From: Chitinophagaceae bacterium
GTDB taxonomy: Bacteria; Bacteroidota; Bacteroidia; Chitinophagales; Chitinophagaceae
Direction of reading: 5' to 3'
NCBI GenBank assembly: GCA_947454155.1
Contig: CANGIT010000013.1
Coordinates: forward strand, 27,495 to 91,494
Length of the DNA: 64,000 nucleotides
Part shown: one piece after another, positions 50,612 through 57,415 of the stretch
Layout of the letters: every line of letters begins with the position of its first letter
Position numbering within the stretch: position 1 is the stretch's first letter
Notes under the pieces: model-generated
Databases searched by the model: none
Told to the model about the DNA's origin: nothing
The model's input: the letters and a program-made list of their open reading frames with translations, nothing else
Translations under genes and position numbers: made by a program

Positions 50612-50998
50612 ATGATAGTTTCACTCGAACAGGAAAAAAAATGCTGCACCTGTAATAAAATAATCAGGGGAAGAAGCGACAAAAAGTTTTGCAATGAATA
50701 TTGCCGAAATGTTTACAATAATAAAGCTAAATCAGCAGATTCGCCAACAACAAAACATATCAATAAAATACTCAACAAAAACAGAGTAGTTTTAAAATTA
50801 AACATATCAAAACAACAGGCTGTAAGAAAAATTAAAAAAGAAACATTGAGAGAACAAGGATTTGTTTTTAAATATCATACACACTTGTTCAATAGAAATA
50901 ACGGCAATCCATATTTTTTTATTTATGATTTTGGATACCTTTCTTTGTGTCAAGAGTGGTGTTTGGTTTTTGAAGCAGACCAGTTGTTAGATAAATAA
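50612..50998 (+). CDS. Hypothetical Cys-rich (zinc-ribbon-like) protein
   Basis: CxxC...GRSDKKFCxxxCR motif, then GFVFKYHTH...YDFGY. Confidence 0.75.
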   Translation: MIVSLEQEKKCCTCNKIIRGRSDKKFCNEYCRNVYNNKAKSADSPTTKHINKILNKNRVVLKLNISKQQAVRKIKKETLREQGFVFKYHTHLFNRNNGNPYFFIYDFGYLSLCQEWCLVFEADQLLDK

Positions 50999-51010: not shown

Positions 51011-52447
51011 TTAAGACATTCTGCTATCAACAGAGTTATATAATTTACCAACAACAAAACCTCTACATTTTTCGCTTTTGCAAGAACAGTTGAAGGGTTC
51101 CATATTTTCATCAAGAAAATCTGTATAATCTAGCGTTAGTTCCTCACCTTTTTTTATTTTTCTTTTTGTGACAACATCAAGTCCAATATAAAATGTGTTT
51201 GCCTCACAACAATGATTTTGCGGAGCCCATTCGGCGGGATTTTCATCCCAGAGTAAAAAAACATTTTTGCTTAAGGGATAGGCATATCGTCTGAAGTTTT
51301 GAAGTTCAGATTCATTCCAGTTTTTTTCAATGAATGGAAGAGTGGCAACTCTTTGTGAGCGCTCTTCTCCCTTAAAAACAATTTCGTTTTCCAATAAATC
51401 TTTGGCAGCATAAATGCCATATCCGGCAATAGCATCACCACGCATCTCATATTTTTTTTGTTTATCCTGATGACGCTGCCATCCTTCTTCAATGATTTTC
51501 TTTAAAAAATAATCCTGACCTGTGCCATCAATCTTTAAAATATAATCTGCAGATCCTTCATAGCCGTTTTGATAAAAAACAGAACAGGTAAAATTGATTT
51601 CTAAAAAATATAAAACACCGGAAGAATTCAATCTGAAATCTAGCCTTGCGTATCCAACGCCTCCAAATCCGTTGAAAATGGCAGTTGCAGACTCTTGTAA
51701 ACGAACGCAAAGCTCTTTATCTTCAACACTAACATTGGCATTGGTGTGAAGCTCCGAAGTTTTCAGTGCATAAGTTTTAAATTTCTTTCCCTTTGGAAAC
51801 AAATATTCAACGGGTTTGAAAACGGTTACCGAATCTTTTGTTCCGGCATTTCGTACAAGCATCACCGTGAACTCTCTGCCGTCAATATATTCTTCCACCA
51901 ACAAGGGGCCATATTCATCAATGATTTCCCCCACTCTGTTCTTCAATGCAATTTCATCACGAACCAACGCACTATCATCAATTCCCAGACTATCTCCAGC
52001 TTTGGATGGTTTCACAAAAAGTGGAAATTCAAATTTTTCTAAAACAATGGCAACGTCTTCTGTTCTTTCAACCAGGAAAAATTTTGGCGTTTTTACCTCT
52101 TGGGTATAGGCCACATATTTCATCAGCTGTTTGGTGGGATCATATAAAAGCTGATTAGGTCCTGTGTAGGGAAGGTTTAACAAATCGAGGTAATAAATAA
52201 CATCAATCGACGGAACCCCCCAGTCCAGATATCCTTCACAGAGATTGATGAAAATATCATAGTTCTTTTTACTCAGTTCCCGGAGCTGTTTGTAAACAGT
52301 CAGTTTGTTTAAAAAAACATGGTCAAAATGGGCATCAGGCAATAAGTGCGAAAGGTTTCTGGGTGGGTCGTAATGCTGGTAGTCAACCTGGCTGGTAGAA
52401 TAATCAGGCATGAGTACACAGATACGGCAAGAGTTTATATTTTCCAT
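51011..52447 (-). CDS. Ddl-like ATP-grasp ligase fused to a C-terminal SET domain with post-SET Cys cluster
   Basis: ATP-grasp: YTGP, FVKPSKAGDSLGI, EEYIDGREFTV, YARLDFR, LEIN. SET: GYGIYA, NHCC, GEELTLDY, CSCKSEKC. Confidence 0.85.
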   Translation of the reverse strand: MENINSCRICVLMPDYSTSQVDYQHYDPPRNLSHLLPDAHFDHVFLNKLTVYKQLRELSKKNYDIFINLCEGYLDWGVPSIDVIYYLDLLNLPYTGPNQLLYDPTKQLMKYVAYTQEVKTPKFFLVERTEDVAIVLEKFEFPLFVKPSKAGDSLGIDDSALVRDEIALKNRVGEIIDEYGPLLVEEYIDGREFTVMLVRNAGTKDSVTVFKPVEYLFPKGKKFKTYALKTSELHTNANVSVEDKELCVRLQESATAIFNGFGGVGYARLDFRLNSSGVLYFLEINFTCSVFYQNGYEGSADYILKIDGTGQDYFLKKIIEEGWQRHQDKQKKYEMRGDAIAGYGIYAAKDLLENEIVFKGEERSQRVATLPFIEKNWNESELQNFRRYAYPLSKNVFLLWDENPAEWAPQNHCCEANTFYIGLDVVTKRKIKKGEELTLDYTDFLDENMEPFNCSCKSEKCRGFVVGKLYNSVDSRMS

Positions 52448-53625
52448 TAGGCATTACCGTTATTAAGATGAGGAAGCGTTTTCATCTTTTCTTTTACTAC
52501 AAGATGAATGTGATTTTCGAAAGCGTTGTTCAAAATATCTTCCACCAGTTGATGAAAAGGAATGTGGGCAAATCGCAGAATTGCACCAATGGAAGTATAA
52601 TTCTCATCTTCACTGATGCCACATTGCGCATTGATTTCAATCATAAATAACTTTCCCGTCATTGCATCCATTCTTATATCTGCTCTTGCATAACCAACAC
52701 CTCCTGTGGCAATGAAAGCAGATTGAGAAATATTTTTGAGATCGGAAATAATGTTTTCGTTGGGAAGGCGATAGTCATAAAAATTACCATCTTCCGGCAT
52801 TGCGCTTTCGTTTTCATAGATTTCCCACAACCGGTCAAAAGAAAGAAACTTTTCCTTTTCGGGAAGTGAAGGATGAAAAACTCTTTCTACCGGACAATAA
52901 ATCCGAATCTCATCAGGCTTAAGATGGTGGCCACAAATAAGTACTGTGAACTCCGGACCCTGAATAAATTGTTCAGCAATAAGTCCATCTGCCATCAGGT
53001 TCCATCCTCTGTATCCGTTTGTCAATTCGTCCAATAAAGCGCTCAAGTCTGTTGTATTGTCGATTACATTTTTTGTACTTACCCCCATGCTACCTCCAGA
53101 TACAGCTGGTTTCACAATCAACGGACCTCCCGTTTGCTGCAACAGCCTTTCCGCGTCTTCAATATCTTTCAATACACACCATTCGGCATTTGCAACACCA
53201 TGCCTATCAAATGCTTTTTTCATCGGAATTTTAGAAGTAGTGATCTCATAAAAATGCCGATTGGCGCCTGTATATATCAACTCTTTTTCCTCCAGATAAT
53301 CTATAACAGATACGCCGGGAGTGCCATTGATTTCATCACCATCACAAAGATTAAAAACAACAGGAAGAACAACTCCTTCGTTTTTCTCAAATGTAATTTC
53401 ATCGATAATGTTTCGAAAATCTGTCAATGTTACCGGCTGCCATTTCCAGTTCAGTTTAAGTGTATTGAAAACCCTGGTATATTCTTCGATGCTTTGTGTA
53501 AAATCGTAGTAGTAATCTATGTTTTCATCTGCTGATGTCAATAGCGGCGAAAGCACCCAAACTTTCAATGGTTTTTCTGCTTGAAATGTCGCCCAATTGC
53601 TTATATGTACCAAGGAGTGGGTCAT
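52447..53625 (-). CDS. Ddl-like ATP-grasp ligase, non-canonical
   Basis: VFNLCDG, YTGA, IVKPAVSGGSMGV, EQFIQGPEFTV, YARADIR, IEINAQCG; lacks the canonical Ddl GGxSxE and HG..GEDG motifs. Confidence 0.85.
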   Translation of the reverse strand: MTHSLVHISNWATFQAEKPLKVWVLSPLLTSADENIDYYYDFTQSIEEYTRVFNTLKLNWKWQPVTLTDFRNIIDEITFEKNEGVVLPVVFNLCDGDEINGTPGVSVIDYLEEKELIYTGANRHFYEITTSKIPMKKAFDRHGVANAEWCVLKDIEDAERLLQQTGGPLIVKPAVSGGSMGVSTKNVIDNTTDLSALLDELTNGYRGWNLMADGLIAEQFIQGPEFTVLICGHHLKPDEIRIYCPVERVFHPSLPEKEKFLSFDRLWEIYENESAMPEDGNFYDYRLPNENIISDLKNISQSAFIATGGVGYARADIRMDAMTGKLFMIEINAQCGISEDENYTSIGAILRFAHIPFHQLVEDILNNAFENHIHLVVKEKMKTLPHLNNGNA

Positions 53626-53799
53626 CTTATGGAATCAGATTTCGAAACGAAAAAGGATAAAGAACAGAAATTGGAAACTGAAAAAATTCACAAAACGCTT
53701 ATTGATGGAAAAAAAAATTGTTCAATGAAAGGTAATCATGAAATAAAAAAGAATAAAAATATTTTTACTGAAATTATCCACTAACGCGCATAGAATAAC

Positions 53800-55903: not shown

Positions 55904-57415
55904 TCATCTGTTGTGGATGGCCAGCACTTCATGGATTATATTTCTTTCGTTGCTGAGTCGTGGTATTTTGTGTTGACCACCGATGCGGCCTTTACTTTGC
56001 AGCCATTTATTGAATGTTCCTTTTTGCAAGGCAAGAATTTTTGGCGGCCCTAATGCGATATCCTTGTGTCTTTTGGCTTCATAATCGCTATTGATGGTTT
56101 TTAATGCGTGGTCGAGACGGTCTCTAAAAAAGACCAGGTCTTTCGGTTCTTTTTCAAATTCAATCAGCCATTCGTGTGCTCCATTGTTTTCGTCGGAGAA
56201 ATAGATGGGAGCCGCTGTATAATCGGTAACGATGGCTCCGCTTTCTTTGGCGGCAAGGCTGATGGCCTTGTCGGTATTATCTACAATCACTTCTTCGCCA
56301 AACGCATTGATATAATGTTTTAACCTTCCGGTTACTTTGATTCGATAAGGATTGATGGAGGTGAACTTTATCGTGTCTCCCACAAGGTATCGCCAAAGTC
56401 CACCTGTTGTGCTGATGACAAGCGCATAATTTTTTCCTAATTGCACCTTGTCTAAACCTATTGTTGATGGGTGGGGTTTTCCATATTCTTCTACCGGTAA
56501 AAACTCGTAGAAGATGCCGTGTTCTGTAAAAAGTTTCATACCGTCATCTTCTGGCTTGTCTTGTCCGGCAAAAAAACCTTCACTGGCGTTGTAAATTTCG
56601 AGATAGCTGATCGGGCCTCCGATTATTTTTTCAAATTGCTCTCGGTAAGGGACAAACGAAACGCCTCCGTTGATGTAGAGTTCAAGGTTGGGCCAAACCT
56701 CTTTGATTGTTTTTTTCTTTTTGATTTCCAATATTCGCTTCAGCAGTAAAAGCGTCCATGTGGGAACGCCGGCAAGAGAAGTAACATTTTCTTCTGAGGT
56801 GGTTTGCGCCAGTTTTTCCAGCTTTTCGCCCCAGTCGTCCAGCAGAGCAACAGAGAGTTCTGGCGTTCGAAGCCATTGACCCCAAAATGGTGTGTTTTGC
56901 ATCAATACGGCACTTAAATCACCGTATTGAATTTCATCGTTCAGCTGATTGACCTGATGAGAGCCGCCTATAACGAGTCCCTTTCCGGTGAGCAGGTCGC
57001 TGGATGGAAAATTATTGTAGTAGCTGGTCAATACGTCTTTGCTGGCTTTGAAATGATTTTCCTGTAAGCTTTCTTCACTAACCGGAATGAATTTGCTTTT
57101 CTTTCCGCTGGTGCCACTGCTTTTCGCAAACCATTTCACCGGCGTGTTCCACAACACATTGTCTTCCCCCTCCATCATTCTCTCGATATAAGGCAGAAGG
57201 TCTTCATATTCATGGATGGGAACTTTTAGTTTGAACTCTTTGACAGAAAAAAGAGAGGAGAAATTGTATTTTTTTCCAAAATCTGTGTACTGTGCCGCAG
57301 ACACCAGGTCCTGCAATACTTCACGCTGACTGGCCACGGGATGGTTGGTCCAGTTTTTAATGCGCCATACACGCATGCGAGCCAGTTTTGATATCGCAGG
57401 AGAAAGCAGTTTCAT
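55904..57415 (-). CDS. GH3 auxin-responsive-promoter family acyl-adenylate enzyme
   Basis: AKSSGTSG, YNASEGFF, WRYLVGDTI. Confidence 0.88.
   Translation of the reverse strand: MKLLSPAISKLARMRVWRIKNWTNHPVASQREVLQDLVSAAQYTDFGKKYNFSSLFSVKEFKLKVPIHEYEDLLPYIERMMEGEDNVLWNTPVKWFAKSSGTSGKKSKFIPVSEESLQENHFKASKDVLTSYYNNFPSSDLLTGKGLVIGGSHQVNQLNDEIQYGDLSAVLMQNTPFWGQWLRTPELSVALLDDWGEKLEKLAQTTSEENVTSLAGVPTWTLLLLKRILEIKKKKTIKEVWPNLELYINGGVSFVPYREQFEKIIGGPISYLEIYNASEGFFAGQDKPEDDGMKLFTEHGIFYEFLPVEEYGKPHPSTIGLDKVQLGKNYALVISTTGGLWRYLVGDTIKFTSINPYRIKVTGRLKHYINAFGEEVIVDNTDKAISLAAKESGAIVTDYTAAPIYFSDENNGAHEWLIEFEKEPKDLVFFRDRLDHALKTINSDYEAKRHKDIALGPPKILALQKGTFNKWLQSKGRIGGQHKIPRLSNERNIIHEVLAIHNR

What the first reader, a model, noticed from the sequence alone, without database searches (positions are those of the whole stretch)
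51011..53625. Paired non-canonical ATP-grasp ligases with a fused SET methyltransferase: candidate novel peptide-modification system
Seen: two Ddl-fold genes overlapping by 1 bp (stop/start at 52447). Both lack the Ddl GGxSxE and HG..GEDG motifs and have NLC(D/E)G plus EINAQCG or EINFTCS instead. The second ends in a SET domain (about 51011-51455: GYGIYA, NHCC, ELTLDY, post-SET CxC...C). A DUF985 cupin and a carbonic anhydrase lie upstream on the same strand. Known: ATP-grasp enzymes form amide bonds, and SET domains are SAM-dependent N-methyltransferases. Inference: a ligate-then-methylate pathway making an N-methylated small peptide, or tagging a protein or cell-wall stem; product unknown.
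Basis: partly seen in the sequence, partly recalled or inferred. Interest (0 to 1): 0.75.

Follow-up and report, generated by a model that had tools for sequence, protein, structure and literature searches.

The report
Twin Ddl-like ligases with SET methyltransferase
Two overlapping genes encode amide-bond-forming enzymes, one fused to a methyltransferase; they are the stripped-down core of a widespread bacterial gene cassette that nobody has characterised and that probably makes a small methylated amino-acid-derived compound.

Summary
Minus-strand ORFs 52447-53625 (G1, 392 aa) and 51011-52447 (G2, 478 aa) overlap by one base (TAATG). Both are Ddl-fold ATP-grasp proteins, and G2 ends in a complete SET/post-SET domain. 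Neither is the housekeeping D-Ala-D-Ala ligase, which lies on another contig and passes NCBI's Ddl cut-off.

The pair is not rare. More than 3,600 G2 and 4,200 G1 homologue clusters exist, and at least 580 species genomes encode a relative. G1 sits directly upstream of G2 in 78 of 78 related Chitinophagaceae loci with room, and five cluster families fuse G1-G2-SET into one chain.

The usual cassette also carries a small BurB-like SET gene (64/78) and an ATPase-less ABC membrane protein (55/77). This window has neither within 64 kb. The DUF985 cupin and carbonic anhydrase are unrelated neighbours (7 and 5 of 80 loci). In a distant branch the ATP-grasp-SET fusion usually stands alone, so the fusion is the family core.

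I found no riboswitch, no conserved precursor peptide and no defence-system match.

Most likely function (about 0.55): ATP-dependent amide ligation plus SAM methylation of a small metabolite. The product is unknown. This scan has met the same cassette in at least a dozen other genomes.

The parts
52447..53625 (-). G1: 392-aa Ddl-fold ATP-grasp ligase paralogue (NLCDG, EINAQCG). It has no SET domain.
   Evidence: ORF. PF07478 at 3e-11. The best NCBIfam Ddl model scores 72.8 bits against a 243 cut-off. AF2 model: pLDDT 86.5, pTM 0.88. The top fold match is P. aeruginosa DdlB 8evz_A, E 9e-20, TM 0.81. The ATP/Mg residues K172, S179, E218, E225, R314, D316, E330 and N332 are conserved.
51458..52447 (-). 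G2, ATP-grasp part (residues 1 to about 330): Ddl-fold ligase, 27% identical to G1 (NLCEG, EINFTCS).
   Evidence: PF07478 at 4.8e-19. BLASTP of G1 against G2: 27% identity, E 3e-28. AF2 model: pLDDT 87.5, pTM 0.84. The top fold matches are all Ddl structures, for example 7u9k_B at E 1.5e-19. K146, S153, E185/E186, E192, R268, D270, E283 and N285 are conserved.
51011..51457 (-). G2, SET plus post-SET methyltransferase domain (residues about 331-478, stop codon included).
   Evidence: PF00856 at 30.6 bits against a 22.4 cut-off. phmmer against PDB: KMT2D SET at 5e-6 and BurB at 2e-3. G342, G344, N411, H412, C414, Y441, C454, C456 and C461 are invariant or nearly so among 119 homologues.
52445..52449 (-). 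TAATG stop/start overlap that joins G1 and G2. This suggests translational coupling within one transcript.
   Evidence: Sequence. Related loci have gaps from -4 to about +30 bp between the two genes.
53626..53799 (-). AT-rich 174-bp spacer upstream of G1, a probable promoter region. In the nearest relatives the stand-alone SET gene sits at this position.
   Evidence: Sequence. No Rfam match in 50-58 kb at E<=1. tblastn with the stand-alone SET protein finds nothing here. In L021, L022 and L025 the SET gene lies between DUF985 and G1.

Best explanation
G1 and G2 form a self-contained cytoplasmic enzyme pair.

Each ATP-grasp domain would work like D-Ala-D-Ala ligase. It phosphorylates a carboxylate with ATP and lets an amine attack the acyl-phosphate, but on substrates other than D-alanine. 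The SET domain fused to G2 would transfer a methyl group from SAM to the substrate or product of that ligation.

The product is a small, methylated, amide-linked compound built from common amino acids, of dipeptide or tripeptide size.

In most relatives a second, BurB-like SET enzyme adds another methylation, and an ATPase-less ABC-type membrane protein probably handles export. This genome keeps only the invariant two-gene core.

What is shown:
- the folds
- intact catalytic motifs
- strict gene pairing
- natural fusions
- the absence of a precursor peptide or any dedicated precursor-supply gene

What is inferred:
- a small-molecule substrate
- the order of the steps
- the atom that is methylated
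- the identity of the product
For: - Both proteins have the Ddl fold, with high-confidence models.
- All ATP/Mg and transition-state residues are kept, while the D-Ala-binding motifs are replaced by family-specific invariant motifs.
- The omega-loop lid region of G2 is flexible in the model (pLDDT below 50 at residues 230-233). That fits the closing pocket of Ddl-type enzymes that act on small substrates.
- The SET motifs and the four-Cys zinc site are intact.
- A SET enzyme that acts on a free amino acid has precedent. BurB (PMC12542666) is the best PDB match of the cassette's stand-alone SET (E 1e-8).
- G1 lies directly upstream of G2 in 78 of 78 loci.
- G1-G2-SET single-chain fusions occur in five 90% clusters and on contigs from several samples.
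- Other architectures exist: ATPgrasp-SET-SET, ATPgrasp-SET-ATPgrasp and a four-SET protein.
- The only recurrent neighbours are the extra SET gene and the PF13748 membrane protein. With no linked precursor-supply gene, the substrates should be common metabolites.
- No conserved small ORF flanks the cassette; the best cluster occurs in 6 of 80 loci.
- The genes are patchy within the genus (13 of 24 genomes), as expected for an accessory metabolite.
Against: - There is no biochemical data for any family member in the literature I searched.
- By sequence, the SET domain of G2 is closer to histone-lysine methyltransferases (KMT2D, 5e-6) than to BurB (2e-3). NCBI names the family protein-lysine N-methyltransferase.
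- This copy lacks the second SET and the membrane protein, so its product may differ from that of the full cassette, or it may need genes elsewhere.
Confidence: 0.55

Rival explanations
1. Protein or peptide tagging. One or both ATP-grasp enzymes add an amino acid to a protein C-terminus or side chain, as RimK and tubulin tyrosine ligase do. The SET domain methylates a lysine of the same target.
For: - The SET domain is of the post-SET, KMT-like type (KMT2D at 5e-6), and NCBI names it a protein-lysine methyltransferase.
- Eukaryotic TTLL12 also combines a SET-like domain with an ATP-grasp (TTL) domain (PMC3520985).
Against: - Both ligases are closest to Ddl, which acts on small molecules, and not to RimK or TTL. 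All top fold matches are Ddl structures.
- No conserved candidate target or precursor gene lies beside the cassette.
- The partner SET found in relatives resembles BurB, which methylates free methionine.
- TTLL12 has the opposite domain order and a different ATP-grasp family.
Confidence: 0.15
2. Cell-envelope chemistry. The pair makes a variant peptidoglycan stem dipeptide or an aminolipid head group, which is then methylated.
For: - The fold is that of D-Ala-D-Ala ligase.
- A membrane protein (PF13748) accompanies the cassette in 55 of 77 relatives.
Against: - No mur, acyltransferase or other envelope gene is linked.
- The genes are missing from 11 of 24 genomes of the same genus.
- The D-Ala-binding motifs are absent, and Ddl model scores are far below the cut-offs.
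- A canonical ddl is present elsewhere.
- This genome has no membrane partner within the window.
Confidence: 0.08
3. A decaying remnant. Having lost the stand-alone SET and the membrane protein, the pair in this genome no longer makes a product.
For: - Only 2 of 76 related loci share the 'neither partner' state.
- The window's branch in the G1+G2 tree is long: 0.52 against a median of 0.12.
Against: - Both ORFs are intact and keep every family-invariant catalytic residue.
- Measured against mnmG, the excess divergence is only about 0.035, roughly one standard deviation.
- The partners have been lost or gained at least 10 and 16 times on the tree, so they are dispensable or can sit elsewhere.
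- In the distant branch the fusion usually works without any partner.
Confidence: 0.07

Closest known systems
D-alanine--D-alanine ligase (Ddl/VanA family, PF07478)
   Same: Same three-domain ATP-grasp fold (TM about 0.75-0.81 to DdlB and other Ddl structures). Same ATP-binding Lys and Glu, the same Arg...Asp, and the same Mg-binding Glu-x-Asn. A flexible lid loop is present.
   Different: - GGxSxE and HGxxGEDG are absent. They are replaced by an invariant D-x-F-x-N-L-C-(D/E)-G motif.
- The omega-loop Tyr is replaced by Thr or Trp in G2 and by Leu-Trp in G1.
- The C-terminal D-Ala2 site is replaced.
- NCBIfam Ddl models score 73-79 bits against cut-offs of 243 or more.
- The real Ddl is encoded elsewhere in the genome and scores 354 bits.
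BurB, the SET-domain L-methionine S-methyltransferase of Burkholderia thailandensis (PDB 9l4t/9l4v; PMC12542666)
   Same: A bacterial SET/post-SET enzyme that methylates a free amino acid, not a protein. It is the best solved relative of the stand-alone SET gene in the full cassette (E 1e-8) and a weak match to the G2 SET domain (E 2e-3).
   Different: BurB is a 180-aa stand-alone enzyme in a DMSP/malleicyprol context, with no ligase. The BurB-like gene itself is missing from this window. The G2 SET domain is closer in sequence to KMT2-type SET domains.
ATP-grasp L-amino-acid ligases of NRPS-independent peptide pathways (for example the thiohistidine-dipeptide ligase AshB, PMC13674229)
   Same: Small cassettes in which an ATP-grasp enzyme joins two amino-acid-type substrates, sometimes alongside a methyltransferase domain and a transporter.
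   Different: These belong to different ATP-grasp subfamilies, and none has a SET domain. No link to this family was found in that paper.
TTLL12 (eukaryotic SET-like plus tubulin-tyrosine-ligase-like protein; PMC3520985)
   Same: It is the only described protein I found that combines a SET-type domain and an ATP-grasp domain in one chain.
   Different: The domain order is opposite (SET then TTL). The ATP-grasp is TTL-type, not Ddl-type. The paper's abstract reports that it catalyses neither histone methylation nor tubulin tyrosination. It shares only the domain types with this family.

Membership tests
D-Ala-D-Ala ligase (EC 6.3.2.4) | Ddl-type ATP-grasp fold and a PF07478 match | tested here: met
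   PF07478 at 69.1 bits (G2) and 43.7 bits (G1), cut-off 24. Foldseek top hits are all Ddl structures.
D-Ala-D-Ala ligase (EC 6.3.2.4) | Score above the curated NCBIfam Ddl cut-offs | tested here: not met
   Best scores are 79 bits (G2) and 72.8 bits (G1), against cut-offs of 243-246. The genome's own Ddl scores 354 bits against 310.
D-Ala-D-Ala ligase (EC 6.3.2.4) | D-Ala binding motifs (GGxSxE Glu, HGxxGEDG, omega-loop Lys-Tyr, C-terminal Ser-Leu) | tested here: not met
   Alignment with the genome's own Ddl. The motifs are absent or replaced. Only the loop Lys (G2 K229) or Arg (G1 R265) is kept.
D-Ala-D-Ala ligase (EC 6.3.2.4) | ATP/Mg catalytic residues (Lys, Glu-Glu, Arg..Asp, Glu-x-Asn) | tested here: met
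   Invariant in alignments A3, A6 and A7.
SET-domain methyltransferase | PF00856 match above the gathering score | tested here: met
   30.6 bits against 22.4, residues 342-441. KMT2D SET matches at E 5e-6 over residues 333-468.
SET-domain methyltransferase | GxG, NH(S/C)xC and ELxxDY motifs, plus the post-SET CxCx4C zinc site | tested here: met
   The motifs AGYGIYA, NHCC, ELTLDY and CSCKSEKC are present. G342, G344, N411, H412, C414, Y441, C454, C456 and C461 are invariant or nearly so in 119 homologues.
SET-domain methyltransferase | SAM binding and methyl transfer; a protein-lysine substrate | not testable with these tools
   This needs an enzyme assay. The NCBI name 'protein-lysine N-methyltransferase' comes from domain homology only.
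BurB/MSMT-type small-molecule SET methyltransferase | Closest sequence relationship to BurB; a stand-alone enzyme of about 180 aa | tested here: inconclusive
   The G2 SET domain matches BurB at E 2e-3, weaker than its KMT2 matches. The cassette's stand-alone SET from relatives matches BurB best (1e-8), but it is absent from this window.
Graspetide / RiPP ATP-grasp maturase system | A conserved precursor-peptide gene next to the ligase | tested here: not met
   The best cluster of small ORFs (20-75 aa) within 900 bp of the cassette occurs in only 6 of 80 loci.
Known anti-phage defence systems (PADLOC) | A match to any PADLOC protein model | tested here: not met
   No family matches either protein at E<=0.01.
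Full SET + ATP-grasp + ATP-grasp-SET (+ ABC-TMD) cassette, as seen in relatives | Stand-alone SET gene upstream of G1 and a PF13748 membrane gene downstream of G2 | tested here: not met
   Neither is found in the 64-kb window by tblastn. Relatives carry them in 64 of 78 and 55 of 77 loci.

The most novel reading that the evidence does not exclude
The ATP-grasp-SET fusion defines a large, unstudied, NRPS-independent route to a new class of methylated compounds. These could be quaternary-ammonium or sulfonium dipeptide- or tripeptide-like metabolites made in soil and freshwater bacteria. On this reading ligation and methylation are physically coupled on one polypeptide, and the Chitinophagaceae clade extends the product with a second, obligatorily paired ligase.
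Probability: 0.4. Interest if true: 0.65.

Novelty: new variant of a known kind. Interest (0 to 1): 0.5.

Why it matters
Thousands of bacterial genomes carry this module, including common freshwater, soil and activated-sludge Chitinophagaceae, yet its product is unknown.

Identifying the product would give a function to a large 'Ddl family / SET domain protein' annotation class. It would extend the short list of SET enzymes that act on small molecules. It might also reveal a new osmolyte, signal or exported metabolite.

This window offers the minimal two-gene form. That is the simplest construct for heterologous expression, and it shows which parts of the cassette are dispensable.

Tried and rejected
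- **Riboswitch or leader RNA upstream.** Rfam at E<=1 over 50-58 kb found nothing.
- **Sigma-70 promoter and terminator scan.** The counts equal those of shuffled sequence, so it is uninformative.
- **RiPP precursor.** No conserved small ORF was found.
- **Defence system.** No PADLOC match.
- **Plasmid carriage.** Plasmids hold only distant ATP-grasp genes without SET.
- **DUF985, carbonic anhydrase, FabG and GH3 as pathway partners.** Rejected, because they are found in only 5-7 of 80 related loci.
- **The 128-aa Cys-rich gene downstream as a partner.** Rejected, because it travels with ssb and not with the cassette.
- **Heterodimer modelling through the natural triple fusion P0041.** MAFFT placed the G1 homologues on the G2 half in two attempts, so no usable alignment could be made.
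- **Iyer et al. 2009 on amidoligases.** Not held in the library.
- **Model coordinates.** They were not available in the Python box, so I could not analyse the pockets or the distance between active sites.
Full report
**1. Observation**

The window holds two minus-strand ORFs.
- G1 is 52447-53625, 392 aa.
- G2 is 51011-52447, 478 aa.
- They are joined by TAATG, so one base is shared between the G1 stop and the G2 start.

Pfam places both in the D-Ala-D-Ala-ligase C-terminal family. It finds a SET domain at G2 residues 342-441, above the gathering score.

The genome's own Ddl shows the canonical GGYSGES and HGTPGEDG motifs that G1 and G2 lack.

**2. Neither gene is the housekeeping ligase**

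- A scan of the whole assembly with PF07478 found a 179-bit match on contig 8.
- That 325-aa product scores 354 bits on NCBI's Ddl equivalog model, above the 310 cut-off.
- G1 and G2 reach only 73-79 bits on Ddl models whose cut-offs are 243 or more.

**3. Fold and catalytic residues**

- The AlphaFold2 models are confident. G2 has pLDDT 87.5 and pTM 0.84. G1 has pLDDT 86.5 and pTM 0.88.
- Their best PDB matches are all Ddl structures, with TM-scores of 0.74-0.81 normalised to the target.
- I aligned both proteins with the genome's own Ddl and with 119-120 homologues each. Both keep the ATP-binding Lys, the Ser of the glycine-rich loop, the Glu-Glu and Glu of the adenine/ribose site, the Arg...Asp pair and the Mg-binding Glu-x-Asn.
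- The D-alanine sites are replaced. An invariant NLC(D/E)G motif stands where HGxxGEDG would be. The omega-loop Lys-Tyr becomes Lys-Thr or Lys-Trp in G2 and Arg-Leu-Trp in G1. The C-terminal Ser-Leu region is different.
- G1 and G2 are 27% identical paralogues.
- The SET domain has GxG, NHxC and ELxxDY. It also has a CxCx4C post-SET cluster which, with C414, makes the usual four-Cys zinc site. These positions are invariant or nearly so.

Both ligases and the methyltransferase therefore look catalytically competent. This is an inference from sequence.

**4. How common, and how tightly paired**

- The word-index protein search found 3,666 homologue clusters for G2 and 4,236 for G1. The nearest are 60-69% identical. 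Where named, they come from Ferruginibacter, Sediminibacterium, Chitinophagaceae and Saprospiraceae. NCBI calls them 'SET domain-containing protein-lysine N-methyltransferase' and 'D-alanine--D-alanine ligase family protein'.
- The exhaustive representative search gave 208 clusters at 50% identity with E<=1e-30.
- At least 580 stretches in species-representative genomes encode a relative.
- I analysed the 80 best loci, all from Chitinophagaceae-type genomes. G1 lies directly upstream of G2 in 78 of 78 loci that have room.
- Five 90%-identity clusters fuse G1, G2 and SET into one chain of 831-844 aa, in the same order as the genes here. They occur on contigs from several independent samples.
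- Within the window's own genus only 13 of 24 genomes carry the fusion. Only 1 of 16 other families of the order gave a match, and that match lacks SET. The module is accessory.

**5. What normally belongs to it, and what this copy lacks**

In the 80 loci, only two other genes recur next to the pair.
- A stand-alone SET protein of about 165 aa lies immediately upstream of G1 in 64 of 78 loci. Its best solved relative is BurB (E 1e-8).
- A protein of about 310 aa lies immediately downstream of G2 in 55 of 77 loci. It matches PF13748 (ABC_membrane_3) and has no ATPase domain.

Of 76 loci with room on both sides:

| Partners present | Loci |
|---|---|
| Both | 44 |
| Stand-alone SET only | 20 |
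| Membrane protein only | 10 |
| Neither | 2 |

The window belongs to the rare 'neither' class. tblastn finds neither gene anywhere in its 64 kb.

On a tree of concatenated G1+G2, the presence of the SET partner changes at least 10 times and that of the membrane partner at least 16 times. Both are therefore repeatedly lost, gained or relocated, while the pair is constant.

The window's branch is long (0.52 against a median of 0.12). Measured against mnmG divergence in the same loci, however, its excess divergence is only about 0.035, roughly one standard deviation. Every invariant residue is kept. I see no sign of decay.

They reflect local synteny of the nearest clade (L021, L022, L023, L025, L038), not function. 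In three of those relatives the stand-alone SET gene sits exactly where this window has a 174-bp spacer.

**6. The wider family**

I scanned metagenome contigs with a profile of distant 'NLCDG'-type members, which are 30-36% identical to G2. The scan returned 80 loci.
- Sixty ORFs are ATP-grasp-SET and eight are ATP-grasp-SET-SET.
- Of 25 loci with at least 1.5 kb on each side, only 1 has a second ATP-grasp gene nearby, 10 have an extra SET (fused or adjacent), and 2 have a full ABC exporter within two genes.
- Other representatives are ATP-grasp-SET-ATP-grasp and a four-SET protein.

The core of the family is thus one ligase fused to one SET domain. The obligatory second ligase, G1, is a feature of the Chitinophagaceae-type clade.

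**7. What it is not**

- No Rfam family matches in 50-58 kb.
- No conserved small ORF that could be a RiPP precursor flanks the cassette.
- There is no PADLOC match.
- Plasmids hold only distant ATP-grasp genes without SET.

**8. Mechanism**

The best-supported reading is a self-contained small-molecule pathway. Two Ddl-like acyl-phosphate ligations and one SAM-dependent methylation act on common amino-acid-type metabolites. Relatives add a second methylation and an export step.

Support for this reading:
- Both ligases have a Ddl-type lidded fold.
- BurB shows that a SET enzyme can act on free methionine (PMC12542666).
- The domains fuse in several orders.
- No target gene, precursor gene or precursor-supply gene is linked.
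- A membrane or ABC partner recurs.
- The module is patchily distributed.

The main weaknesses are that no member has been assayed, and that the G2 SET domain is closer in sequence to histone-lysine methyltransferases than to BurB. The main rival, protein tagging combined with lysine methylation, therefore stays open at about 0.15. Cell-envelope chemistry and a dead remnant are less likely.

**9. Literature and earlier notes**

- Full-text searches for ATP-grasp together with SET domain returned only TTLL12 (a SET-like plus TTL protein of eukaryotes, PMC3520985) and unrelated papers. I found no characterisation of this family.
- This scan's earlier notes describe the same cassette in at least a dozen other genomes, with the same conclusion of 'uncharacterised, probably a small methylated metabolite'.
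- My own results agree with those notes and add four points: the 78/78 pairing count, the quantified partner frequencies, the finding that this window holds the minimal two-gene form, and the finding that the distant branch lacks G1.

**10. Verdict**

This is a real, intact and conserved enzyme pair. It is a reduced member of a widespread but unstudied ligase-plus-SET module. It is a new variant of known enzyme kinds, not a new kind of system. Interest is moderate, mainly as a clean starting point for finding the product.

Noticed in passing
window 50612-50998 (+): A 128-aa protein with an N-terminal Cys-rich (CxxC...CxxxC) segment and no Pfam match. It lies convergent with G2 at a 12-bp distance. 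In 44 of 80 related loci it sits divergently beside ssb, and it follows ssb even where ssb is not next to the cassette. It therefore looks like an ssb-linked gene of unknown function.
   Followed up: partly
window 55904-57415 (-): A 503-aa protein with all three GH3 domains (plant auxin-amido-synthetase-like acyl-acid amido synthetase). It lies upstream of fabG, carbonic anhydrase and DUF985 on the same strand. It is present in only 6 of 80 related loci.
   Followed up: no
L023 (CALPIT020000003.1); L032, L034, L061: Several metagenome-assembled genomes with Chitinophagaceae-type synteny and 63-68% identical cassette genes are labelled 'Streptomyces griseus' or 'Chitinophaga pinensis' in their record titles. 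These are probably wrong organism labels.
   Followed up: no
L057 and L095 (long-read assemblies): G1 is split into two ORFs (95+295 aa in L057, 202+143 aa in L095), and in L057 the membrane gene is split as well. This could be long-read frameshift errors or real pseudogenes.
   Followed up: no
L021-L100, tree: Lineages that lack the stand-alone SET gene tend to have long terminal branches in the G1+G2 tree: the window 0.52, L080 0.71, L023 0.42, L033 0.37, L087 0.35 and L077 0.35, against a median of 0.12. This may mean the core adapts after losing its partner. I did not test it with independent contrasts.
   Followed up: partly
L101 5954-8395: In one triple-fusion locus the cassette is followed by homogentisate 1,2-dioxygenase and a 4-hydroxyphenylpyruvate-dioxygenase-like gene (tyrosine catabolism). 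This was seen in one lineage only.
   Followed up: no
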